DNA of 64,000 nucleotides from a virus. The position numbers and the translations under genes are program-made. The notes under the pieces are model-generated. The model was not told where the DNA came from, searched no databases, and was given only the letters and a program-made list of their open reading frames with translations. The stretch is taken from positions 16,461 to 80,460 of the IMG/VR virus record IMGVR_UViG_3300041409_000599; one strand, given 5' to 3'. Of the stretch, positions 10,611 through 41,960 are shown piece after piece (position 1 is the stretch's first letter; each line of letters opens with the position of its first letter).

Positions 10611-11093
10611 TTAGTTGACGCTGCCCTGGCCGCCGCTCTCAGACTTTGGCCAGTATCCGTGCTCTACAAAGAATTCCTTTTCCGCTTCGCTCTTGCCTTC
10701 CAGTTGTTTCCTGAACTGATCGTGCTCCTGGCCTTTCACCATGAAGCCCTGCATCTCAGCCACTAGGCGCAACGCCGCCACCTGGCCTGTGATATTGCTG
10801 TTCGTTTCTTTGGGCAGCATGTCGGCCAGCTTCAGCGCTCGTTCCGTCACGTCGATCTTGCTGGCCTTGGTGGCAATCTTCCGGGCTGATACCTCAACCA
10901 TCTGCTTCCGCTTTTCCTCGATCGCCTTGGCAATCTCTGGTATCTGCATCAGACGAAACGAGTCGCGTGCCGGATCGGAGAACCCAGCATCGCGCGCCGC
11001 CTGTACGTCATCACCCTTCCACGCCAGCACGTAGGCCATGCGCATTTCCGTCCACTTGAATTTGTTCTTGCCGGTTCTCTTGTGTGACGCCAT
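10611..11093 (-). CDS. terS: Terminase small subunit
   Basis: QAARDAGFS..RLMQIPEIAKAI HTH; lies directly upstream of TerL. Confidence 0.75.
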   Translation of the reverse strand: MASHKRTGKNKFKWTEMRMAYVLAWKGDDVQAARDAGFSDPARDSFRLMQIPEIAKAIEEKRKQMVEVSARKIATKASKIDVTERALKLADMLPKETNSNITGQVAALRLVAEMQGFMVKGQEHDQFRKQLEGKSEAEKEFFVEHGYWPKSESGGQGSVN

Positions 11094-14000
11094 TACCGCT
11101 CCTCAAAGGCATGCAGTGCACCTTCGCGTTCGCCTTCAATGGGATTGCCCCGCATGGTGCTGACGGCCTTCTTCAGCATGATTGGCCGGATAATCGCTTT
11201 CTCTTCCGGCGTGGCCGCGTTGAATACCTTCTTTACGTCTGAGTAGCGATCGAGGCGCGGCAGGTAGAAGCTCAACTCGTCCAGCGCCTGCTTCTTCAGT
11301 TGGGCTTTGCGCTCCTTCTGGCTCAAGTCGCCGGACTCGATGCGCGCGCGCTTGTCGTCCAATTGCTTCTGCAGGTCCGGAGTCAGCGCCATGTTCTCGC
11401 GCAGGAGTTCGTGCATCAGCCGCACCGCGGTCGATTGCGTTTCGGAATTGGGGAAGGTAACGCCAGCCTGGTAGGCCAGCAGGTCGCGGGTCGGAGTCTC
11501 TGACCGTTCTGCCTTTTCTACCTGCTGCGTCGGGCCCAGGGCGCCAGTAATCTTTTTGCCCACATCATGCGCGATCGTTGCCGCCGGCGCATGCCGATCG
11601 TAGATCCTGCTGCCGCTGTAGAAGTCACGATTGAACGCCAACTCCGCCGCTGTCTTCGGCAGGACCGCCGGCGTGAATGTTCCCTGAATCAATTCCTCTG
11701 GCGGCTTGTTGCCTTTTACAATCTCATTCACCAGATACGGCACCGCCGAAGCGCCAGAGCGTACCATGCGCGCCTTGGGGTCGCCCGTAATCTTCTTCAG
11801 CAGTTTGTCCCACATCTCATAGGCCACAAACGTCAGCAGCCCCAGCATGAACAGGTGATCAAACCCGCGCGCCCGGTCCTTCCATGTGCTGTCCGGGCTA
11901 GCCGCTTCCTTCAACATCTGCCCGTAGGATTTCCACACGCCATAGTGGTACCGGCTGAATACCGTCAGCATGTGGCTGTTCATGAATTTCGAAAGACCAT
12001 GCGAGTTGAGCACCCGTGAAGGGATCCGGTAATCAGGGATGTGCTTCGCCGTCTCCGCAGCAGCCTCTTCAAAGGGCATGCCGCCCAGGGCTTTCTCATA
12101 GGTCGCCTGCAGAAAAAAGATATCGTTCGACATCCACGTCATCTTCTGCCCCAGCTTGTACAGCCCTTTCATCATGTCCAGATGGTTGGCGTAGCCGGCC
12201 GCTTTCGCCAGCATGCTCGCCACGTCGGTGTGATGGTCAAGGTAGCCGAGGATTGAATCCACCAGGTGCTTATGCAGTTCGCGCAGGTCCTGGCGATGGC
12301 TCATCATCGGCGCGCCGTGGTCCAGCGCCTGCACAAAGTCGTCGTTCTGCGTTACCACGGCTTTGATTGCCCGAATGCCGGCTTTGAACGAACGCGGATA
12401 CCTGAACACGTTGAAATTGCCGGTGACGCCTCGTTCCACCAGCCAGTGATTGCCGATGTTATAGACGTGCCGCGCGGGATTGAGCACCAGGGACGCTGTC
12501 ATCAGGTTGCCGATCTTTTCCATGGCGCCGGCAGGGTCGGCATGCAGTTCGTCGGCAAAGCGGTCCAGCGTTTCCGCCAGATGCTTTTCAAAATAGTAGC
12601 CATTGAATTGCGGCAGGTTCACCGTGCGCCAGCCGTCCGGAGGCATCTCGCCATGCTCCGGCTTGAAACTCAGGCTCTTGAACTCAGGGTCTTCCTTCAT
12701 CGCATCGAGCGCGTCATTGGCTCGTTCCGCGCGCCGAAGTTGCAGATAGTCCACCACGGTGTTGGCCAGCGCGTTCTTGTAGTAGCGAACGCCGGTGTGC
12801 TCCTCAATCTCTTTAGTTGTGGCCTGCTTCAACGTCCAGCGCTGGCCGTCTTTATCGTTGAACTCATCTCCCACCTGCAAGCCGGGCTTGTCTTTGGCGA
12901 ACTCTGAAGCGCTGCCGTTATCGAACGCCGTCATGGTGTCGCCATTGCGATGGACCACCACGCGCTGGCCGTCTTCGTCTTCCGCGGCAAACATCCGGCG
13001 CCCTTTGAGAGAACTGGCCGCTTTCGATAGCACGTTGCCTTTGCCGGTGCCGCCTTTGCCGCGCATGGCGCGTTCCATCTGGTTGTTCTTGCCCTGGACC
13101 TCGCGATGGATATAACCGTCGTCCTCGCCCATGGGAACGCCGGCCTTGTTCAGCTTGGCGCGCATTTCGGAATTGGCGTCCATCAGCGGCTGTACTACGC
13201 CCTCAAGGTTGGCCTGCTGCCGGGCCGTCAGCGCTTCGCCGCTATCTTCTTTATGGTGGTAGATGGCGGCCTGGTCTTCGGGCGAGGTTGTCGGGCCCAC
13301 GGCCTTCAGCAGCTTGATCACGCGCAGCACGTCGGCATCTGACTGCTTGCCCAGCTGGTAGAGCGTGTCGTCAATATTCTTGGCCGCTTTGTTTAATCCC
13401 GGTTCCAGTACTCGGTCCCAGGTCTTTTCTTTCGCGGCCTTCACCAGATCGGCTACGGCCGATGGAACGTTGAGACGGGCAAAGCCGGATTCACCGCTCT
13501 TGTCCTTGAGCGTCTTCAGTCCGACGGTTACAGTCTTGCCGTCGTCGGTCTTGACCCGGGCAATATTCATTTCCGGGTGGACGTACTGCACTTGACCGCT
13601 GCGGCCATCGGCCAGGGTTACGGTTTCGCCTTTGGCTGGTGCGCCCGGCTGATTGAATAACCCGCTCTGCCCGCTCGCTTCCGAATCGCGAAACAGCGGC
13701 GAGTTGCGTTCCATTTCGCCGGTCTTGGTGCTTATCGATTCTTTTGGCGCGGTAATCTCGCGCGAGAGGTCTTCGCCGTGCTTTTCAGCAACGGCTTCCT
13801 TTTCTGCCGCAACATGAGGTTCCATGCCGGGCAGTGTTGGCTCTTCAGATTTGTTTTTTGGTCTGCGTAGCTCTTCCAGGTCGGAAGGTTTTACTGAGGC
13901 TTGCCGGTCGGCGTTTCCTGCATCTTCTTCTGCATGTCCTGGATGCTCTTGAACTCGTTCAGCACCCTGCCCTTCGCTCCCGGTGACAGCTTTTCGTAGC

Positions 14001-17000
14001 TCGGCTCTGACGGCTTGGTAGGCTCTGCTCTTAACGTCTTCCGGTTTGTGGTATCCACTGGCTAACTCCTTGGCGGACTTTTCCAGAATGTCATTGACCG
14101 GGCCGGTGTGCGAACTCAGTTTATTGTACGCCTCCTCGGCCTGCCCGGCGGCATCGGCAATCTTTCTGTTCTGCTCGGCCTTCAGCTTCTGGCCCTTCAC
14201 CTGGCCCAGCGCGGACGCTTTGTCCTCGGTCGCCACTGATCCAAACACCCTGCGCTCTTTTGCTATCTGCGCTTTGATGTGCGCCGATATCTCCGCTTTC
14301 TCCAGAGCCAGAGAATGGATCTGCTGATTGGCGCCGAACAATCCCCCTTGCTCAATGGTCTTGTTGCCGGAGTTGCCCACGAACCGCGCCAGCTCCGCGA
14401 CCGTCGCATCAGTAACGCTCTTGCCTTGCTTCTCGCGCTTGTCGAGCAGTTTTAGAATCGCTTCCTGCTGCGCCGGATCACTCGTCGCCTGTCCGATGGC
14501 CACGCCGCGGCCTTCGCTCATCTTGCCCGTGGCCACACGCTCAAAGATCGATTGATCGAGTTTAGATAGCGCCAGGCCGTCCGCGGCTTTGGACTCGCCC
14601 AGGGAGATGCCGTGCTTGCTCAGGTCGGCGGGTGAGATGCCGCTCTCGCGGAAGAATTTTGCCGCGTCGACGGCTGTCCCTCTGCCTTCAGCAATGTTCT
14701 GCAGGGCGCCCGTTGCGCGCGCTTCGCCTGCGGTGTCAACATTCAAATGGCGCGCAAGAAGATCATGTGCGCCGTTTTCTTTTGCCAGTTGAACGCGATG
14801 GTGTCCATTGACCACGTAAGTCTTGCCATCGGCGGGATTGTGCCAGATGGAGACCACGCCAGCCAGATCGTCATTCCATTTCTGCCCGGAAAGAAGGTTG
14901 GTTACGCCGTGTTCGTTGGTGTTGAGTTTGTACTGAAATTCTTTTGGCGCGATCGTGAGGTCATCCACGCGGACGCGGCCAGCCTGCCCTTTGGCCGGGA
15001 TGCCTTCAGGCAGTTGATGCTCAATCTCTGATTCGTGGAAGGTCTGGGGAGCTACTTCTTCGGTTCCACCTTGAGTGGCGGCTTCATGTCCGACTTCAGT
15101 AATTCCTCTAAGCTCACCACGGGCACGCTCTCCGGCTGCTTCTCTGGCGGTCTTGTGTTTGTGGAGTTCGGCTTCTGCGGATTTGAGGTCGGTTCCTGTG
15201 CCATAGCTAAAGTCTACTCCTTGGAGCGTGACGGTATTTCCATCTGCATCGGTGACGGTAAACTCGCGGTTCCTGAGGATCGCGCGCGCCTTTTCCAGCC
15301 CGGCTTTCAATTGCTCCGGCGATTCACCGCGATAGAGAAATTCATCACCCTTCTGATGGTAAGCGTCCAGTCCGGCTTCTTTCGCCGCTTCGGCTTTGGC
15401 CACCAGAATAGTGTTGCCTGCCTTGTATCCAAACTTGTCATTGAAGGCTTTCAGCGCGTCGGCGTCCGACATGGCCACCGCCGGCGACGAGGGCGCATCG
15501 TGGAAGGCGCGGCCATTCGGAATTGGCATCTCTGTGTGTGTGCCGTCGCCATTGTCCAGCCGCGACGTGTGCAGTTCCCGCGCCATCTCATGCGGCTTCA
15601 TATCCGCCACGCGCTTGCGCTCGGCCACGTTGGTGCGGCGGTCCGGCTTGTTGCCGTATACCGTACCTTTGCCAGAATCGTAATCGGGAAAGAGCACGAC
15701 TACATTGTGTGGGCCGTACTTTTTCCCTGCGGATCGGCCACCTTCGTGGCGCAACCCGTGATATCCCATCTCCACCAGATTCTGGGAGATGTCGCCGAGC
15801 AGGTCCTGAATTTCGTAAGCCGGGATGCGCTGCGCCGCCGATTCATCCCGTAATTCTGAATAGATGTGCGTGCCCTTGGTGCCTTCAGGAAAGGCAGACA
15901 TGCCCAAGGGGGTGTACTGTTCAATTCGTTTATTGAAGAGCTGGAGAACTTTGTCCGGCAGAGGCTTTTCCAGATCCAGAACTTTTGCGCCTGGTAACTC
16001 GGCTGAGAGCACGTGACGCTGTTCTGTCCTACCCTCGTCAGGTTTTCTGGTTCGCTTGTAACCTTCTGCCACTTTCGGATTATCGGTAAGGTAAAGCCCT
16101 GGACCGTAAATGTTCAATTCACCGGAGAACCCTACCGGATCAGCCTCTTTCAGTTCCGTCAAACCATGGGGCGTGCCGTGATAAAACGTCTTGCCGCCGG
16201 GCAATTCCTCGTGTGTCAATGGTTCATATTTGTAGCCGCCTTCAAGGGGTATGCGTTCTTCTGTCCCATCTCTCTTGCTGACGACAACATGGTCCACAGG
16301 GATCTTGCCGCCCTCCAGATGGCTGCCGCCTTCATATTTGGCAACATGTTCCGGCTTCACGTAGCCCAGAGTGACGTGCGGCTTATACTCGCCGTGGTCG
16401 TCCGGCTTAAACTCGCCGGCGCCCTCAACCGCTGAACGCAAGGCGTTAAGTTCGGGAGATTTCTCCACGTGCACAATGACTGGATGGGCACCTTCCTTGG
16501 TGGCCGGGAATGATCCAGTCTTGCCGACCGTGGCCTCAAACGGCGCTATCTTGGCCGCCGCATCCTTTATATGGGCGATGGCTTCAGGGCTGTCGTCTTT
16601 CAGGCCATAACGCACCGTAACGTGCGGAGTCTTTTCCTTGCCGTTCGGCCCCAGATGCTCTTCCGGGATGGCCGCAACCGCTTCGGTATGCCGCTGGCCC
16701 AGCTCGCTCTTGGGCTCGATATTGACTTGCGTGGACGCATATTCATGCGCTGGCTGGATGTCATTCTCGGTGAATACTTTAGGAGCAGCTACTTCCTGTT
16801 TTGCTCCCTCATTTCCGGTCAGATTTTGGGTAGATTGAGACTCCTGGGGCACACCAGGAGCCTGTGTTTCGCCCAAGTCAGTCTGAACCGGCTGCGGAGT
16901 GGGTGCCTGTGGCTCTTGAGCCGGTGTTGCCTTCGGTGGACGCGAACTGGCTAGGAACTGTCTGACCGGTGCTGCCGGCGTACTTGTGGCTTCAGGTGTC

Positions 17001-18550
17001 CTATTGGCAGCTTCCGGTGAGCTTTTGGCCGGTTGCTGTGAGCTTTCGGTCTTTACTTGCACCTTGGCCGCTTCAGCCGTGGCCTTATCGTGCGCTGCCA
17101 CGCCATCATTAATAAGCTTGGCCGCCAGTGCTTCCGCTGCGTCGGGCGTCTTCGCGATGTGGATCTTGCCATCCACCACGACCTTGCCCTTGTTGTCGGC
17201 AATCCACTGCGTCAGGTTCTGGTGCGCCTCGTCGATAACCTGGTTGCGTTTTCCTTCCGGGACTTTTGCGATCGTCTGCGCCAGATGGTCAACCTGCGCG
17301 CCCGAAAGCTTGTTGCCAAACTCCTCGCCCGGAGTGGGTGGCGGCGGCGCCGGAGGCGGTACCGCTGGCCTTCCTGCAACAACGTTCTTGGCCATCGTCG
17401 CGGAGGCGTTGGCCTTCACCATCGACGCAACCTCAGAAGGCATCGGCCTTGGAGGTGCTTCAGGATTGTGCGGCGTACCGGTTATTTCTCCCGGCCCGGG
17501 TCCAAGTTGGCGTGGCTGGCCGGTTCTTCCAGTTGATGTGTCGCCTTCCGGTGCGGCTTTGTCCTCATAAGAAAATCCTCGCGAGAACTTTCGTCCGAAT
17601 CGCGTATCACCGACTTTGGCCCCAATCGTCACGTCTTCCGGGGTCACGCGGACACCGCCAGATACCCTGTCACCAAAAGCGGAGAACTCTCCTATCCGGG
17701 TTGGACGTGGTCCCGGGCCTTTACCGTAGCCGGACTTCAGCCCGGAAACCACGCCCAGGGCTGACGGCGCAAACATCGACACCGTGCGAATCAGGTCTTC
17801 ATCTTCAGGCGATACATGCCCGTGGACGGCTGCGCCTGCGCCCTCGCTGGCGAGCATGCCTGCGCCGAATCCCAGCGCTGTCTTGGCCGGGGCCATCACA
17901 CCAGATGCCGCTACCAGCGGCAAACTGACATCGCCTACGCCCTTGATGGTTTCAGCAATGCCGCTCATTTCCTGCCGCCGGGCTGCTTCGGGCATCCGTG
18001 TAAGCGGTACGCGCTGGCCGGTACGAGGATTGGTAAAGAACGCGCCGTTGTCCGGTACCTGCTGGCTTTCAGCTTTCTTGATGTCGCTGGCACCGCTGGC
18101 AATCTGCTCCGGGCCAGTCGTAAACGGACGCGCCGGATCATAGATCGGCATATCCGCTTCAGGCACGGCAGAGAGTGGAACGCGCTGGCCAGTCCGAGGA
18201 TTCGTGAAATGGCCGTCCGTTGGTTCCTTCGGTGCACCTGCAACCGGAGCCAGCGGCATACCGGCGGATTCACTGGCGGCAGTCTGTGGACTCTTCGCGC
18301 GCGCCACGGACGCCTGTGTGTCTTTGTCCGGCTGGTTCCAGAGCGTTCCAACCACATCAGAAAACTTTGGCGCAGGACGAGACGCGGCCGGTGCTTTGTA
18401 TCCGGGAGAGCCGGGGCCAAGGGGATTGCCGCCGAGCGCAGTTCCGGTGCTGGGTTTGGCTATCTCGTCTTCGCCGAAGGTGATCGGCTTGGACGACTGG
18501 CCGGACTGATCGATGTCCTGATCGCTAAAAACTACCGGGGAATCGGGCAT
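11093..18550 (-). CDS. Giant polyvalent internal virion/ejection protein (2H phosphoesterase, ART-like, GGDEF-like and ParB-like domains)
   Basis: PHVTV/PHVTL; YHGT..GPGLYLT; NDKFG..KGDEF; VNGHHR; position after other ejection proteins. Confidence 0.85.
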   Translation of the reverse strand: MPDSPVVFSDQDIDQSGQSSKPITFGEDEIAKPSTGTALGGNPLGPGSPGYKAPAASRPAPKFSDVVGTLWNQPDKDTQASVARAKSPQTAASESAGMPLAPVAGAPKEPTDGHFTNPRTGQRVPLSAVPEADMPIYDPARPFTTGPEQIASGASDIKKAESQQVPDNGAFFTNPRTGQRVPLTRMPEAARRQEMSGIAETIKGVGDVSLPLVAASGVMAPAKTALGFGAGMLASEGAGAAVHGHVSPEDEDLIRTVSMFAPSALGVVSGLKSGYGKGPGPRPTRIGEFSAFGDRVSGGVRVTPEDVTIGAKVGDTRFGRKFSRGFSYEDKAAPEGDTSTGRTGQPRQLGPGPGEITGTPHNPEAPPRPMPSEVASMVKANASATMAKNVVAGRPAVPPPAPPPPTPGEEFGNKLSGAQVDHLAQTIAKVPEGKRNQVIDEAHQNLTQWIADNKGKVVVDGKIHIAKTPDAAEALAAKLINDGVAAHDKATAEAAKVQVKTESSQQPAKSSPEAANRTPEATSTPAAPVRQFLASSRPPKATPAQEPQAPTPQPVQTDLGETQAPGVPQESQSTQNLTGNEGAKQEVAAPKVFTENDIQPAHEYASTQVNIEPKSELGQRHTEAVAAIPEEHLGPNGKEKTPHVTVRYGLKDDSPEAIAHIKDAAAKIAPFEATVGKTGSFPATKEGAHPVIVHVEKSPELNALRSAVEGAGEFKPDDHGEYKPHVTLGYVKPEHVAKYEGGSHLEGGKIPVDHVVVSKRDGTEERIPLEGGYKYEPLTHEELPGGKTFYHGTPHGLTELKEADPVGFSGELNIYGPGLYLTDNPKVAEGYKRTRKPDEGRTEQRHVLSAELPGAKVLDLEKPLPDKVLQLFNKRIEQYTPLGMSAFPEGTKGTHIYSELRDESAAQRIPAYEIQDLLGDISQNLVEMGYHGLRHEGGRSAGKKYGPHNVVVLFPDYDSGKGTVYGNKPDRRTNVAERKRVADMKPHEMARELHTSRLDNGDGTHTEMPIPNGRAFHDAPSSPAVAMSDADALKAFNDKFGYKAGNTILVAKAEAAKEAGLDAYHQKGDEFLYRGESPEQLKAGLEKARAILRNREFTVTDADGNTVTLQGVDFSYGTGTDLKSAEAELHKHKTAREAAGERARGELRGITEVGHEAATQGGTEEVAPQTFHESEIEHQLPEGIPAKGQAGRVRVDDLTIAPKEFQYKLNTNEHGVTNLLSGQKWNDDLAGVVSIWHNPADGKTYVVNGHHRVQLAKENGAHDLLARHLNVDTAGEARATGALQNIAEGRGTAVDAAKFFRESGISPADLSKHGISLGESKAADGLALSKLDQSIFERVATGKMSEGRGVAIGQATSDPAQQEAILKLLDKREKQGKSVTDATVAELARFVGNSGNKTIEQGGLFGANQQIHSLALEKAEISAHIKAQIAKERRVFGSVATEDKASALGQVKGQKLKAEQNRKIADAAGQAEEAYNKLSSHTGPVNDILEKSAKELASGYHKPEDVKSRAYQAVRAELRKAVTGSEGQGAERVQEHPGHAEEDAGNADRQASVKPSDLEELRRPKNKSEEPTLPGMEPHVAAEKEAVAEKHGEDLSREITAPKESISTKTGEMERNSPLFRDSEASGQSGLFNQPGAPAKGETVTLADGRSGQVQYVHPEMNIARVKTDDGKTVTVGLKTLKDKSGESGFARLNVPSAVADLVKAAKEKTWDRVLEPGLNKAAKNIDDTLYQLGKQSDADVLRVIKLLKAVGPTTSPEDQAAIYHHKEDSGEALTARQQANLEGVVQPLMDANSEMRAKLNKAGVPMGEDDGYIHREVQGKNNQMERAMRGKGGTGKGNVLSKAASSLKGRRMFAAEDEDGQRVVVHRNGDTMTAFDNGSASEFAKDKPGLQVGDEFNDKDGQRWTLKQATTKEIEEHTGVRYYKNALANTVVDYLQLRRAERANDALDAMKEDPEFKSLSFKPEHGEMPPDGWRTVNLPQFNGYYFEKHLAETLDRFADELHADPAGAMEKIGNLMTASLVLNPARHVYNIGNHWLVERGVTGNFNVFRYPRSFKAGIRAIKAVVTQNDDFVQALDHGAPMMSHRQDLRELHKHLVDSILGYLDHHTDVASMLAKAAGYANHLDMMKGLYKLGQKMTWMSNDIFFLQATYEKALGGMPFEEAAAETAKHIPDYRIPSRVLNSHGLSKFMNSHMLTVFSRYHYGVWKSYGQMLKEAASPDSTWKDRARGFDHLFMLGLLTFVAYEMWDKLLKKITGDPKARMVRSGASAVPYLVNEIVKGNKPPEELIQGTFTPAVLPKTAAELAFNRDFYSGSRIYDRHAPAATIAHDVGKKITGALGPTQQVEKAERSETPTRDLLAYQAGVTFPNSETQSTAVRLMHELLRENMALTPDLQKQLDDKRARIESGDLSQKERKAQLKKQALDELSFYLPRLDRYSDVKKVFNAATPEEKAIIRPIMLKKAVSTMRGNPIEGEREGALHAFEER

Positions 18551-39525: not shown

Positions 39526-39834
39526 CTAAACTTTTGGGCTTTCCGCGACTCCGGCCGCGTGAACCTCATCCTTGGTGGGAGCGCGCAGGACCGCGAACGC
39601 GCCGACAATCAAATTCGATCCCTGCTCTTTCTGTCCGCAGCAGGTCAGCAGGACGCCACCGGCAAGGATAAGCACCATCCATACCGTGATAGAAACGCGG
39701 TTGACGGCATCGACCAACGGAGCGAGAAACGCCTGCTGTCTCAGCCGCAGGCCAAAGAAAAGCAGGAAGATGATCGTCAGGAAAACGCCCCAGATCACGT
39801 TGTGCAGCGCATTGATAGCTTGTACAAAGTTCAT
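39526..39834 (-). CDS. Small membrane protein, holin candidate
   Basis: 2-3 TM helices near the endolysin. Confidence 0.5.
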   Translation of the reverse strand: MNFVQAINALHNVIWGVFLTIIFLLFFGLRLRQQAFLAPLVDAVNRVSITVWMVLILAGGVLLTCCGQKEQGSNLIVGAFAVLRAPTKDEVHAAGVAESPKV

Positions 39835-40355
39835 CCTTCAATCCTCTCTTCCTTCGCGCAACCAAGCCCCAAGATGAAATCCTTCTGACTTTGCAGGGCT
39901 AGGCCAAAATGCTCTGCTTCCATGAGCGCGTTCTCAGGCGTCCATCCGTTCACCAGAACTCGATAAGCCGCCACCATGCAGCCAGTGCGTCCTTGCCCTT
40001 GCTCGCAATGGATGAAGACTGGCTCACGCGCCGCCTGCATGATCGACTGCAATTCCATTACGTCCTTATTGGACGGCGCTGTGTTGTCGATTATCGGAAT
40101 GTTGAACGCCACGCTTCCAACCGCCCGAACAACCGCATCCTGTGAGCGTTCGGCGCATAGATTGACTGCGGTCGTAATTCCCATCGCTCTGAGCCCGCTC
40201 AGGTGCTTAGCGTCTGGCCAGGAGCCACGATAGAGCTTTCCGGGGTCCACTTCCGCGATATACCAATGGATCGGGTAAAGAGGTCTGCCGGCTAGTTTTT
40301 CCAGCCGCCCGAATTCAGCAGCTATTGCGCTCTCAGCCTTACCCAGCAGCGTCAT
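39831..40355 (-). CDS. Protein-tyrosine/dual-specificity phosphatase
   Basis: LYRGSWP; HCEQGQGRTG (CX5R). Confidence 0.9.
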   Translation of the reverse strand: MTLLGKAESAIAAEFGRLEKLAGRPLYPIHWYIAEVDPGKLYRGSWPDAKHLSGLRAMGITTAVNLCAERSQDAVVRAVGSVAFNIPIIDNTAPSNKDVMELQSIMQAAREPVFIHCEQGQGRTGCMVAAYRVLVNGWTPENALMEAEHFGLALQSQKDFILGLGCAKEERIEG

Positions 40356-40912: not shown

Positions 40913-41337
40913 TGCGTGTAACTCTCCATCTTGGCCAGCACTTCGTCGGGATACGCCGCATTGCCGCCGCCATTCCATGCCAGCAGCCCCTTGCGCACAT
41001 CGCCGCCGTGGGCATCCAGCTTGGCTTTCAGGTGTCTGCATCCCCAGTCCAGGCCCGTATCTGGATCACAGAGGCTTGCCATCTTCGCGTTGAATCCCAT
41101 CTCTCGCGCTGACTGACCCATGAGCTGCATCAGTCCCCATGAGATTGAGCGCGCAACTGTTTCTGTTTGTCCCAGGGCAAGAGGTTCGACGTACCGCTTT
41201 TGAAACGCAGGCTCATAGCGGATGGCCCATGGCGCCCAGTTCGATTCCTGCTCAACTACCGCACAGACAAGAGCGCCATTAAGATCATGAAGGCGCGCAA
41301 AGTATCGGGCTTTGTCTTTCAGATCGTCTATGGTCAT
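40909..41337 (-). CDS. Lytic transglycosylase (SLT) endolysin
   Basis: VEQES, SWGLMQ, AWNGG. Confidence 0.85.
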   Translation of the reverse strand: MTIDDLKDKARYFARLHDLNGALVCAVVEQESNWAPWAIRYEPAFQKRYVEPLALGQTETVARSISWGLMQLMGQSAREMGFNAKMASLCDPDTGLDWGCRHLKAKLDAHGGDVRKGLLAWNGGGNAAYPDEVLAKMESYTQ

Positions 41338-41420
41338 TCTGGAATCACCGCAGGGACAAGCTTTGTCAGTTTCATCGCCAGCCAGGTCGCCCAATCAAGC
41401 GACTGCTGAAACGTCATGAT

Positions 41421-41960
41421 TTAAATGGAGCTCCCGGATGGATTTTCACCACCGACCTCTTGCTTCAATGGCAAGTGCTCTGCCGGAGCTGCGGGAGCGT
41501 TAAACGGCCACATTCCTGTGGCCTCTGCCGTACACATCGTCCGCGCCGATTGCGATGTACTTACGAAACTGGCTCCCCGCTGACCATTCAAGGCCACTTC
41601 AGCGCTAGCAACCGAAGGCGGGGAATAACGCCACAGCTTGTAATTAGCTAGTGGCAAACTGTTTTCTTGCGTCAATGGCTCGGTCGCAACCGCCGACGTG
41701 CCAAACTGCGGATTGTCCGGATCGATGAACTGAAGGTTGGGAATACCAGCGTCCCGCAGCTTCCCAATCGCCTTGTTGAGGGACTTCTCACTTAATGCCT
41801 GCAGCACGATCACCCGCGGGATGCCGATGGCGCTGCATCCGAAATTCCTGAAGTAGACGCCGGCCATATGGAACACGGCATGGTTCGCCTGGACAATCTG
41901 CTGCTCGACCGGCAATTCATTGCGTACGAAAATGTAGATTGTGCGCTCGTCAATGTTCAT
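41421..41960 (-). CDS. Peptidyl-tRNA hydrolase 2 (Pth2/PTRHD1)-fold protein; C-terminal ~70 codons overlap tRNA-like RNAs
   Basis: IYIFVRNEL..VQANHA..VIVLQALSEKSL..FIDPD..TSAVATEP..YKLW. Confidence 0.65.
   Translation of the reverse strand: MNIDERTIYIFVRNELPVEQQIVQANHAVFHMAGVYFRNFGCSAIGIPRVIVLQALSEKSLNKAIGKLRDAGIPNLQFIDPDNPQFGTSAVATEPLTQENSLPLANYKLWRYSPPSVASAEVALNGQRGASFVSTSQSARTMCTAEATGMWPFNAPAAPAEHLPLKQEVGGENPSGSSI
41426..41498 (-). tRNA. Atypical tRNA-Gln(TTG)-like gene with encoded CCA
   Basis: GCTCCCG/CGGGAGC-T-CCA; D stem GCTC/GAGC; anticodon arm CTTGC-CATTGAA-GCAAG; T arm GGTGG-TGAAAAT-CCATC; non-canonical C8, A33 and T-loop. Confidence 0.75.
41570..41624 (-). ncRNA. D-armless tRNA-like element ending in CCA
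   Basis: TCCCCGC/GCGGGGA-G-CCA; one arm CTTCGG/CTGAAG; T-like arm TGGCC-TTGAAT-GGTCA. Confidence 0.5.

What the first reader, a model, noticed from the sequence alone, without database searches (positions are those of the whole stretch)
41421..41960. Pth2-fold gene whose reading frame runs through two CCA-ending tRNA-like RNAs: candidate nonstop-mRNA-controlled translation-rescue module
Seen: the Pth2-like fold ends at YKLW (~41630), where Pth2 proteins normally end. There is no stop there. The frame runs ~70 more codons through a 55-nt tRNA-like element (41570-41624), two hairpins and a full cloverleaf (41426-41498), and stops 2 nt after the final CCA. Known: E. coli arfA mRNA is cut to a nonstop transcript, so ArfA accumulates only when tmRNA tagging fails. 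Inference: RNase P cleavage at the first acceptor stem would give a nonstop mRNA encoding exactly the Pth2 domain and release the tRNA-like RNAs. This could make a phage sensor/effector for stalled translation or for anti-tRNA defences. The canonical Pth2 catalytic Lys is not obvious, so the protein may bind RNA rather than hydrolyse it.
Basis: partly seen in the sequence, partly recalled or inferred. Interest (0 to 1): 0.85.

Follow-up and report, generated by a model that had tools for sequence, protein, structure and literature searches.

The report
Stop-less phage gene fused to tRNA mimics
A soil phage gene for a peptidyl-tRNA-hydrolase-like protein has no stop codon of its own and reads straight into two conserved tRNA look-alikes; a whole clade of phages keeps this layout, so making the protein and cutting out the RNAs probably compete on one transcript, but no RNA or protein data show this yet.

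Summary
The ORF at 41421-41960(-) has a Pth2-fold domain (aa 1-110). It then runs with no stop through a 55-nt anticodon-less tRNA mimic (41570-41624), two lineage-specific hairpins and a non-canonical tRNA-Gln(UUG)-like cloverleaf (41426-41498). The TAA stop lies 2 nt after the final CCA.

In this phage alone the open frame is not significant (6.6% of shuffles). The comparison with relatives carries the case:
- All 31 distinct proteins of one well-supported clade have an ORF that runs into a tRNA or mini-tRNA. That RNA usually starts 0-3 codons after the last conserved Trp/Tyr codon.
- Sister clades have stops of their own.
- Both RNA types covary strongly, while the tail peptide is not conserved and is predicted disordered.
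- The first RNA carries a stop in the ORF frame in 1 of 28 loci, against 15 and 21 of 28 in the other frames.

Most clade members also have TAG at codon 3 and amber-suppressor tRNAs. This phage lost both and uses the standard code.

The nonstop-mRNA idea remains plausible but untested. A toggle between translation and RNase P processing fits best. This scan found the same cassette and stop-less layout earlier on other genomes. I found no paper describing it.

The parts
41631..41960 (-). Pth2-fold domain (aa 1-110) of the stop-less ORF. The ATG overlaps the stop of the upstream 63-aa ORF (ATGA).
   Evidence: AF2 pLDDT 96. Foldseek hits to Pth2 structures 2zv3, 1wn2, 3erj, 1q7s, 1xty. Family profile against PDB. 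phrog_1866 and phrog_34073. 279 homologues.
41625..41630 (-). Two sense codons (CGT TAT) between the W110 codon and nucleotide +1 of the first RNA. This would be the RNase P leader, with U at -1 and A at -2. There is no stop codon here.
   Evidence: Direct reading. Leader statistics in 29 related loci.
41570..41624 (-). 55-nt mini tRNA mimic: a 7-bp acceptor stem, a 7-bp hairpin with the 7-nt loop UGCUAGC, a T-arm-like hairpin (5 bp, loop UUGAAU), discriminator G and an encoded CCA. It has no D arm and no variable region.
   Evidence: Fold. Model R2 hit, 27.9 bits, E 4.6e-4. Family covariation. Compensatory changes against L043 and L019.
41499..41569 (-). 71-nt spacer with two hairpins (8 bp, and 7 bp capped by GGAA). 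It is specific to this lineage; in L043 and L019 the mini abuts the tRNA.
   Evidence: Fold, z -2.06. Comparison with relatives.
41426..41498 (-). Non-canonical tRNA-Gln(UUG)-like cloverleaf with encoded CCA. It has C8, a 5-nt D loop, A33 and the T-loop UGAAAAU. All four stems are intact.
   Evidence: Rfam RF00005, 42.3 bits. ARAGORN -ps. Collinear alignment with cassette tRNAs from 9 other loci: 98.6% of cells paired, 14 of 21 pairs with changes on both sides.
41421..41423 (-). First in-frame stop (TAA). It lies 2 nt after the CCA and 3 nt before the ATG (41415-41417) of a 27-aa ORF that overlaps the start of the SLT lysozyme gene.
   Evidence: Direct reading.

Best explanation
This is a derived member of a widespread, unpublished phage cassette. 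A divergent Pth2-fold gene has no stop codon of its own. It is fused head to tail, on one transcript, to RNAs that look like RNase P substrates: an anticodon-less mini tRNA mimic ending in CCA, and a non-canonical tRNA.

The likely mechanism is a toggle, because translating the last codons and folding or cutting the first RNA exclude each other.
- If ribosomes read on, they unfold the mimic and the tRNA-like RNA. They add a disordered junk tail and terminate just after the array, next to the start of the downstream gene.
- If the RNA folds first, RNase P cuts 6 nt after the Trp110 codon. That releases the small RNAs and leaves a stop-less message for the bare Pth2 domain plus two residues. Its product then depends on the host's nonstop rescue systems (tmRNA, ArfA/ArfB).

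Shown: the fold, the conserved RNAs, the stop-less layout across the clade, and the ORF frame kept open through the first RNA.
Inferred: co-transcription, RNase P cleavage, the competition itself, and what the protein and RNAs do. The protein probably acts on or binds the acceptor/CCA end of tRNA-like substrates. It lacks the Pth2 catalytic Lys.
For: - Pth2 fold.
- Mini RNA family: 98.3% of cells paired, 16 of 18 pairs changed on both sides, covariation score 0.84 against 0.20 for shuffles and 0.09-0.19 for slid controls. The mini in this window was detected by a model built without it. There are 25 minis in 21 related loci.
- Cloverleaf under selection.
- Stop-less layout: one clade with 99/99 support and 31 of 31 members stop-less, while sister clades carry their own stops 1-42 codons after the domain.
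- Junction: the first RNA starts 0-3 codons after the last conserved Trp/Tyr codon in most of the clade. The leader has U (17), C (10), A (2) and G (0) at -1, and A at -2 in 19 of 29 loci.
- Open frame: the first element carries a stop in the ORF frame in 1 of 28 loci, against 15 and 21 of 28 in the other two frames.
- Gate-less relatives: in this phage and the five relatives that also lack the codon-3 TAG, the frame stays open through the whole array and stops 2-32 nt behind it.
- Tail: not conserved as a peptide and predicted disordered.
- Precedent: a published bioinformatic case of the same logic, selC nested in the selB ORF (PMC8124441).
Against: - There are no RNA ends, no protein data and no RNA-seq run for this sequence.
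- The stop-less state arose once, so the 31 cases are not independent. Part of the open-frame signal may be inherited together with the conserved phase and conserved RNA motifs.
- In this locus alone the open frame occurs in 6.6% of shuffles.
- No promoter or terminator scan result supports or excludes co-transcription.
- In amber-gated relatives the stop lies at varied places: inside the second element, between elements, and once inside the first (L022). Reading through the whole array is therefore not universal.
Confidence: 0.45

Rival explanations
1. Strict ArfA/BrfA-type sensor. The transcript is always cut by RNase P, the Pth2 domain is made only from the nonstop message, and it accumulates only when tmRNA tagging is saturated. 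The protein then works as a rescue or clean-up factor.
For: There is no stop before the first putative RNase P site in 31 of 31 clade members. The leader and the encoded RCCA fit an RNase P substrate. Relatives that end 1-14 residues after the Trp show that the bare domain is a complete protein. arfA is a precedent (PMC3989581).
Against: This model predicts no selection inside the RNA element, yet the ORF frame is kept open across it (1 of 28 loci against 15 and 21 of 28). A nascent Pth2 domain stalled with its last 30-40 residues in the exit tunnel cannot free itself. The catalytic Lys of Pth2 is missing. No data on tagging exist.
Confidence: 0.2
2. Neutral read-through. The stop was lost once in the clade's ancestor, the junk tail is tolerated, and the layout has no regulatory meaning. 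The cassette RNAs and the protein work independently of it.
For: The stop-less state has a single origin. The stop position downstream varies. The tail is not conserved and is disordered. Under neutrality the expected number of regained stops in a 0-3 codon spacer is small.
Against: All 31 deeply diverged members retain the layout (tip branches 0.1-0.7 changes per site). The ORF frame alone is depleted of stops inside the first RNA. The junction is tight and conserved, with a leader rich in U and A. If RNase P does cut here, a missing stop would not be neutral, because the product would be tagged for degradation.
Confidence: 0.2
3. Counter-defence reading of the parts, which is compatible with either layout model. 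The mini mimic and the A33 tRNA would be decoys or nuclease-resistant replacements against host enzymes that attack tRNA anticodon loops or CCA tails. The Pth2-like protein would clear or bind the damaged or blocked tRNA ends.
For: A33 recurs in cassette tRNAs (this phage, L043, L083, L089), and so does the odd T-loop UGRAAAU (this phage, L083, L088, L002). All stems still covary, so these are selected oddities and not decay. The gate-less cassettes carry Gln(UUG), Lys(UUU) and Arg(UCU/ACG) tRNAs; from my own knowledge these are classic anticodon-nuclease targets. Published work shows phage tRNAs evading such nucleases through loop changes (PMC10264068, PMC11555353) and defences that cut tRNA tails (PMC12851939). 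PTH2 of jumbo phages has been proposed to act after tRNA cleavage (PMC7824862).
Against: No defence system or target is identified. U33 is normally needed for decoding, so an A33 tRNA may not work in translation at all. Most of the clade carries amber suppressors instead, which points to translation control, not tRNA replacement.
Confidence: 0.25
4. Decaying tRNA genes plus one stop-loss mutation: an annotation curiosity of this one phage.
For: ARAGORN at default settings and Rfam with fast filters find no tRNA here. The phage uses the standard code and has no other tRNA.
Against: All stems are intact, with compensatory changes relative to relatives. The mini is a member of a covarying family. 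The layout is shared by 31 lineages.
Confidence: 0.03

Closest known systems
selC (tRNA-Sec) nested inside the selB ORF of Alphaproteobacteria (Mukai 2021, PMC8124441; a bioinformatic prediction)
   Same: A whole tRNA lies inside the 3' extension of the ORF of a tRNA-binding translation protein. The ORF ends at or next to the start of the next gene. The proposed logic is that folding and processing of the tRNA compete with synthesis of the full-length protein.
   Different: The case here is a phage cassette and not a cellular operon. The protein has a Pth2 fold and is not an elongation factor. The first nested RNA is an anticodon-less mimic, and several RNAs lie in a row. Here the core domain ends before the RNA, so cleavage would leave a complete domain on a nonstop message.
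Programmed nonstop messages arfA (E. coli, cut by RNase III) and brfA (B. subtilis, terminator inside the ORF); arfA reviewed in PMC3989581, brfA from my own knowledge
   Same: No usable stop remains after processing inside the ORF. The product belongs to the world of translation rescue.
   Different: The processing signal would be an RNase P substrate that is itself a functional RNA. Neither cleavage nor tmRNA control has been shown. The frame is kept open beyond the putative cut site.
Pth2 / PTRH2 (Pfam PF01981; PDB 2zv3, 1wn2, 3erj, 1q7s, 1xty) and the PTH2 genes of jumbo phages (Iyer et al. 2021, PMC7824862)
   Same: It has the same alpha/beta fold and size, the conserved His of the 'Q..HA' motif, and the Asp that aligns with the Pth2 'DAG' motif.
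   Different: This protein scores below the Pfam threshold. The catalytic Lys of the 'GK' motif is replaced. It has its own conserved C-terminal N-Y-[RK]-L-W motif. The published phage PTH2 notes mention neither the tRNA mimics nor the missing stop.
Amber-gated Pth2-like gene with suppressor tRNA and anticodon-less tRNA mimics. This cassette was seen repeatedly by this scan on other genomes; I found it in no paper.
   Same: It falls in the same protein clade, carries the same mini RNA family, has the same gene order and the same stop-less junction.
   Different: This phage has no TAG at codon 3 and no CUA tRNA. Its tRNA carries UUG with A33. Hairpin 1 of its mini has a 7-nt loop containing CUA in place of a GNRA tetraloop.
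tRNA-like domain of tmRNA and aminoacylatable acceptor/T-arm minihelices (PMC3985003; minihelices from my own knowledge)
   Same: It has an acceptor stem stacked on a T-like arm, no anticodon, an encoded CCA, and a 5' end of RNase P type.
   Different: It has no mRNA-like part and no pseudoknots. It has C3-G70, not the G3-U70 alanine identity pair. Whether it is charged is unknown.
Theta (minimal HDV-like) ribozymes next to phage suppressor tRNAs (Kienbeck et al. 2024, PMC10879173)
   Same: They are small structured RNAs of about 50-60 nt packed between phage tRNAs, often suppressor tRNAs.
   Different: Theta ribozymes are nested double pseudoknots that follow tRNAs lacking CCA. The minis are plain three-way junctions that end in NCCA, and nothing follows the 3' acceptor strand that could form P4 or P2.
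tRNA punctuation of mitochondrial transcripts (from my own knowledge)
   Same: [quoted passage not shown]
   Different: There, A-tailing completes a U or UA into UAA. Here the cut falls between codons (after UAU), so A-tailing would give AAA, not a stop.

Membership tests
Pth2 (PF01981) | Pth2 alpha/beta fold | tested here: met
   The AF2 model has pLDDT 96. The top 14 Foldseek PDB hits are Pth2 proteins plus Atu0240 (2gax), with TM 0.52-0.75 and E down to 2e-6.
Pth2 (PF01981) | Score above the Pfam gathering threshold | tested here: not met
   This protein has no PF01981 hit. 25 of 66 relatives match weakly, best E 1.1e-5. A family profile reaches Pth2 chains in the PDB at E 5e-5.
Pth2 (PF01981) | Catalytic Lys of the 'GK' motif | tested here: not met
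   In the profile alignment to 24bt_A and 2zv3_A, the GK column holds Gln or other residues. Gln21 is invariant among the 12 closest relatives.
Pth2 (PF01981) | Conserved Asp of the 'DAG' motif and His of 'Q..HA' | tested here: met
   D82 and H27 are nearly invariant and invariant respectively, and both align with the Pth2 motifs.
Pth2 (PF01981) | Hydrolysis of peptidyl-tRNA | not testable with these tools
   This needs an enzyme assay or complementation of an E. coli pth(ts) mutant.
Canonical tRNA (Rfam RF00005) | Covariance-model score at or above the gathering score | tested here: met
   42.3 bits against 29, E 3.7e-7. The hit is lost with Rfam's fast filters.
Canonical tRNA (Rfam RF00005) | Invariant positions U8, U33, T54-Psi55-C56 and a D loop of normal size | tested here: not met
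   The element has C8, A33, the T-loop UGAAAAU and a 5-nt D loop (drawing, alignment). ARAGORN at default settings rejects it.
Canonical tRNA (Rfam RF00005) | Four stems kept by compensatory change | tested here: met
   98.6% of cells paired and 14 of 21 pairs changed on both sides, on a plain MAFFT alignment of 10 cassette tRNAs.
   27.9 bits, E 4.6e-4, full length, at 41570-41624(-). The next hit in the 64-kb window has E 1.1.
   Here the loop is UGCUAGC (7 nt). L043 and L019 have a related 9-nt loop. These three form a loop variant.
Programmed nonstop mRNA (arfA/brfA type) | No in-frame stop before the processing site | tested here: met
   it holds across the clade.
Programmed nonstop mRNA (arfA/brfA type) | Cleavage or termination inside the ORF in vivo, and product level set by tmRNA tagging | not testable with these tools
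   It needs end mapping and ssrA/arfA genetics.
Programmed nonstop mRNA (arfA/brfA type) | The truncated product is the functional form | tested here: inconclusive
   Many homologues end 1-14 residues after the Trp, so the bare domain is viable. However, the frame is kept open beyond the putative cut site.
ORF-nested tRNA (selB-selC type) | An entire tRNA(-like) gene inside the 3' extension of the ORF, with the ORF end next to the start of the next gene | tested here: met
   Both RNAs lie inside the ORF, and the TAA is 3 nt before the next ATG.
Amber-gated Pth2 plus suppressor tRNA cassette | TAG at about codon 3 and an adjacent CUA tRNA | tested here: not met
   The gene starts ATG AAC ATT, with no TAG. 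Its tRNA anticodon is UUG. Most clade members have 'MT*I' and CUA tRNAs.
Theta / HDV-like ribozyme | Nested double pseudoknot with P2 and P4 and a catalytic C after the 3' strand of P1 | tested here: not met
   Only NCCA follows the 3' strand of the long helix. The family definition comes from PMC10879173. No Rfam ribozyme hit at E up to 10.

The most novel reading that the evidence does not exclude
The cassette is a self-contained phage device for handling stalled translation or attacked tRNAs. The anticodon-less RNA ending in CCA would be the working partner of the Pth2-like protein, as acceptor, decoy or substrate mimic. The missing stop would make the amounts of protein and RNA report on the state of translation: ribosome traffic on one side, RNase P processing and nonstop rescue on the other. 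That would be a new kind of RNA-protein translation-control system and a new class of functional tRNA mimic.
Probability: 0.2. Interest if true: 0.9.

Novelty: new variant of a known kind. Interest (0 to 1): 0.75.

Why it matters
If the layout works as inferred, phages have repeatedly kept a gene whose message is ended by cutting out a tRNA-like RNA instead of by a stop codon. This joins two ideas known only from single cellular cases: arfA-type nonstop control, and the predicted nesting of selC inside selB. It would make both testable in a compact 540-nt cassette.

It also defines a covarying family of 50-55-nt anticodon-less tRNA mimics ending in CCA. This family is absent from Rfam, and ordinary annotation hides it inside a 'hypothetical protein'.

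For annotation, the long C-terminal tails of these proteins, with motifs like VAQL.EH...NPS, are translated tRNA genes and not protein domains.

Tried and rejected
- **Word-index protein search:** found only the query itself.
- **blastn against phage records:** found nothing.
- **The look-up of encoding contigs:** DNA for the closest protein-only relatives P0002-P0008 could not be fetched, so their stop-less tails are known only as translated tRNA motifs.
- **Fixed-acceptor DNA pattern in viral contigs:** returned only L043 and L019 plus four chance matches with no Pth2 gene upstream.
- **First related-loci run:** failed with the broad alignment and worked with a narrower one.
- **Mini as a theta/HDV-like ribozyme:** rejected.
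- **TAG recoding of this phage:** rejected. TAG ends 14 of 90 long ORFs, and reading it as sense gains less coverage than doing the same for TGA or TAA.
- **Mitochondria-style completion of a stop by A-tailing:** rejected, because the putative cut falls between codons.
- **Remnant of a tRNA integration site:** rejected. Both RNAs are complete, sit at the same place in relatives and covary.
- **Tail as a folded or conserved domain:** rejected.
- **Sequencing runs:** no RNA holder is listed for this stretch. Read laying was not used, because only DNA contigs were on offer.
- **Promoter and terminator scan:** gave nothing above the shuffled background near the cassette.
- **Cultured phages:** those with homologues (ME3, CBB, GAP32, fHe-Yen9, RsoM2USA, Arash and others, at most 38% identity) appear to belong to branches with stops of their own. 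That is the case in the three loci I looked at and in L013, which is ME3. None matched closely enough to belong to the stop-less clade.
Full report
**What is there.** The window is part of a complete 80,460-bp IMG/VR virus record from soil.
- On the minus strand, ORF 41421-41960 encodes 179 aa. Its ATG overlaps the stop of the upstream small ORF.
- The Trp110 codon is at 41631-41633, followed by CGT TAT.
- Next comes a 55-nt RNA at 41570-41624. It folds on its own into a 7-bp acceptor stem, a 7-bp hairpin with loop UGCUAGC, a 5-bp T-like hairpin with loop UUGAAU, then G and CCA (-25.7 kcal/mol, z -2.5).
- A 71-nt spacer with two hairpins follows (z -2.1).
- Then comes a 73-nt cloverleaf with encoded CCA at 41426-41498.
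- The first in-frame stop, TAA, lies 2 nt after that CCA and 3 nt before the ATG of a 27-aa ORF, which in turn overlaps the SLT lysozyme gene.

Taken alone, the 69-codon open tail is not remarkable: 6.6% of shuffles are also open, and the 226-nt region as a whole folds only slightly better than shuffles (z -1.4).

**The protein.**
- Pfam gives nothing for this protein. PHROGs gives two families of unknown function.
- An exhaustive HMMER search found 279 homologues.
- A profile of 66 of them reaches Pth2 chains in the PDB (24bt_A E 5e-5, 2zv3_A 0.03). 25 of the 66 match PF01981 weakly.
- An AF2 model of residues 1-110 has pLDDT 96. Its 14 best PDB matches are Pth2 proteins plus Atu0240 (2gax), with TM up to 0.75 to human Bit1.
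- The family keeps His27, Asp82, Thr93, Arg13 and Asp15, but has Gln where Pth2 has its catalytic Lys.

It therefore has the Pth2 fold but is not shown to be a hydrolase.

**The cloverleaf.**
- Rfam's tRNA model scores it at 42.3 bits (gathering score 29), but only with permissive filters.
- ARAGORN finds it only at lowered thresholds, as tRNA-Gln(UUG). It is the single tRNA-like call in the whole genome.
- It has C8, a 5-nt D loop, A33 and the T-loop UGAAAAU.
- It aligns collinearly with the tRNAs at the same position in nine related loci. There 98.6% of cells are paired and 14 of 21 pairs show changes on both sides (covariation score 0.67, against 0.19 for shuffles and 0.05-0.12 for slid controls).
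- A33 recurs in four of these ten tRNAs, and the UGRAAAU T-loop recurs in this phage, L083, L088 and L002.

These are selected oddities, not decay.

**The mini RNA.**
- In many related loci, the 50-90 nt between the Pth2 domain and the first ARAGORN tRNA hold the same kind of element: an acceptor stem, a hairpin that is mostly GNRA-capped, a T-like hairpin, then N and CCA.
- I built a covariance model from six of them and iterated it once. It found 25 copies in 21 loci.
- On the 18-sequence alignment, 98.3% of cells pair and 16 of 18 pairs change on both sides (score 0.84, against 0.20 for shuffles and 0.09-0.19 for slid controls). That alignment was fitted to the model, which favours pairing, but the slid controls share that bias.
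- The second model was built without this phage. With filters off, it finds 41570-41624 as the only hit in the 64-kb window with E below 1 (27.9 bits, E 4.6e-4).
- Against the two closest copies (L043, L019), hairpin 1 shows U-A to G-C and G-U to C-G exchanges, while the acceptor stem and GCCA are identical.
- No Rfam family matches it. It is not a theta/HDV-like ribozyme.

**The missing stop is a clade-wide rule.**
- I located the domain end with an HMM in 118 loci (75 viral, 42 metagenomic, plus this one) and compared it with the first in-frame stop and the RNA elements.
- The result is bimodal. In one group the ORF runs on for 10-69 codons into a tRNA or mini, which usually starts 0-3 codons after the last conserved Trp/Tyr codon. 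In the other group the ORF stops 1-42 codons after the domain and, with four exceptions that have their own stop first (L048, L055, L063, L105), no RNA follows closely.
- On a maximum-likelihood tree, the first group is one clade (support 99/99) of 31 distinct proteins. Of these, 29 were scored as running into RNA. The other two are L007, whose contig ends inside the tRNA, and L028, whose frame passes a degenerate tRNA-like stretch.
- Even the shortest tail (L022) ends at a TAA inside the mini's T-like loop.
- The leader before the first RNA has U (17), C (10), A (2) and G (0) at -1, and A at -2 in 19 of 29 loci. By my recollection of bacterial RNase P preferences, this fits.
- The tail is not a conserved peptide. 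The first element begins at different codon positions in different loci. A 1-nt length difference in the T-like arm puts the shared acceptor-CCA letters into different frames in this phage and in L043. A full-length model leaves residues 111-179 without structure.

Across 28 loci, the first RNA element carries a stop in the ORF's frame in only 1 case. The other two frames carry stops in 15 and 21 cases. In this phage and the five relatives that also lack the codon-3 TAG (L043, L019, L008, L083, L088), the frame stays open through the whole array and stops 2-32 nt behind it. Shared ancestry and conserved motifs explain part of this. Even so, it suggests that ribosomes do travel through the RNA. 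A model in which the transcript is always cut first would not require that.

**Wider context.**
- In most of the clade the RNAs behind the gene are amber suppressors (anticodon CUA, sometimes UUA), and the gene begins M-T-TAG-I.
- The subclade holding this phage has lost the TAG. Its tRNAs read sense codons: Gln UUG, Arg UCU/ACG, Lys UUU.
- This genome uses the standard code.
- More distant homologues, often with the early TAG but with their own stop, occur in cultured jumbo phages (ME3, CBB, GAP32, RsoM2USA and others). There the gene is unannotated or truncated in the records.

**How it most likely works.** The junction is so tight that a ribosome decoding the last conserved codons must already cover the 5' strand of the acceptor stem. 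Translation and folding of the first RNA therefore exclude each other; this follows from the sequence.
- If the RNA folds, it has what an RNase P substrate needs: a 7-bp acceptor stem stacked on a T-like arm, RCCA, and a pyrimidine at -1. Cleavage would leave a stop-less message for the domain plus Arg-Tyr.
- If ribosomes pass first, they unfold the RNAs and end next to the start of the next gene.

I rate this two-way toggle at 0.45, the strict arfA-like sensor at 0.2, and neutral read-through at 0.2. The counter-defence reading concerns what the RNAs and the protein are for, and it is compatible with any of the three.

**Comparison with what is known.**
- The nearest published case is the predicted nesting of selC inside selB (PMC8124441).
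- The nearest regulatory precedent is arfA (PMC3989581).
- PTH2 genes of jumbo phages have been noted, but without the RNAs or the missing stop (PMC7824862).
- My literature searches found no description of the cassette.

**Earlier notes of this scan.** They report the same cassette and the same stop-less layout on other genomes. I reached the suppressor link and the stop-less rule before reading them. I took two leads from them, the codon-3 TAG and the selB paper, and checked both here.

**Limits.**
- There is no RNA or protein evidence of any kind.
- The stop-less state has a single origin.

Noticed in passing
L002-L096 (e.g. L084:1486-1500, L002:2486-2500): Most genes of the stop-less clade, and many more distant homologues, begin ATG-ACN-TAG-ATT ('MT*I'). 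This is an in-frame amber codon at codon 3, next to CUA-anticodon tRNAs. The subclade with this phage has lost it: L043 has TCC there, while this phage and L008 lack the codon.
   Followed up: partly
L043:2901-2975, L083:957-1032, L089:1902-1976, window 41426-41498: A33 in place of the near-universal U33 recurs in four of ten cassette tRNAs. Many of these tRNAs have the D loop AGAGAAA with no GG. Read one base later, the loops of L043 and L083 would present CUA and UUA.
   Followed up: partly
L020:2947-3020, L005:3019-3094, L086:1139-1222: ARAGORN calls tRNAs with four-base anticodons (aata, gcaa, tcaa), meaning 8-nt anticodon loops, inside these cassettes.
   Followed up: no
L089:1801-1900, L096:1079-1305, L026:2839-2932, L014:2798-3016: Some cassettes carry two mini tRNA mimics, in tandem or flanking the suppressor tRNA. 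A second, 50-nt type has a short palindromic hairpin and occurs in L014, L092, L093 and L005.
   Followed up: partly
L032:2795-2865: The tail of this stop-less ORF runs through a tandem repeat of about 12 nt (CGCCAACGTCAT-like units) before it reaches the tRNAs.
   Followed up: no
window 41334-41417 (-): A 27-aa ORF (MTFQQSLDW...) starts 3 nt after the stop of the long ORF, and its stop overlaps the ATG of the SLT lysozyme gene (ATGA). In L043 and L019 the gene at this place encodes a signal peptide, with a lipoprotein-type LTGC motif in L043. The cassette therefore sits just ahead of lysis-type genes.
   Followed up: no
window 39831-40355 (-): A 174-aa phage protein with a clear dual-specificity / tyrosine phosphatase domain (PF22741 at E 2.4e-15 and related families).
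   Followed up: no
window 11093-18550 (-): A single ORF of 2485 aa, which is very large for an 80-kb phage. I did not examine it.
   Followed up: no
KU574722.1 286015-286323; MG752970.1 68880-69203; OQ632216.1 50257-50544: In cultured jumbo phages (CBB, RsoM2USA, Arash) the homologous Pth2-like gene is unannotated or annotated only as a 3' fragment. This fits an early in-frame TAG that gene callers treat as a stop.
   Followed up: partly
window 41426-41498: Rfam run at gathering threshold over the whole window misses this tRNA-like RNA, although it scores 13 bits above the threshold when the filters are relaxed. Routine annotation would not see it.
   Followed up: yes
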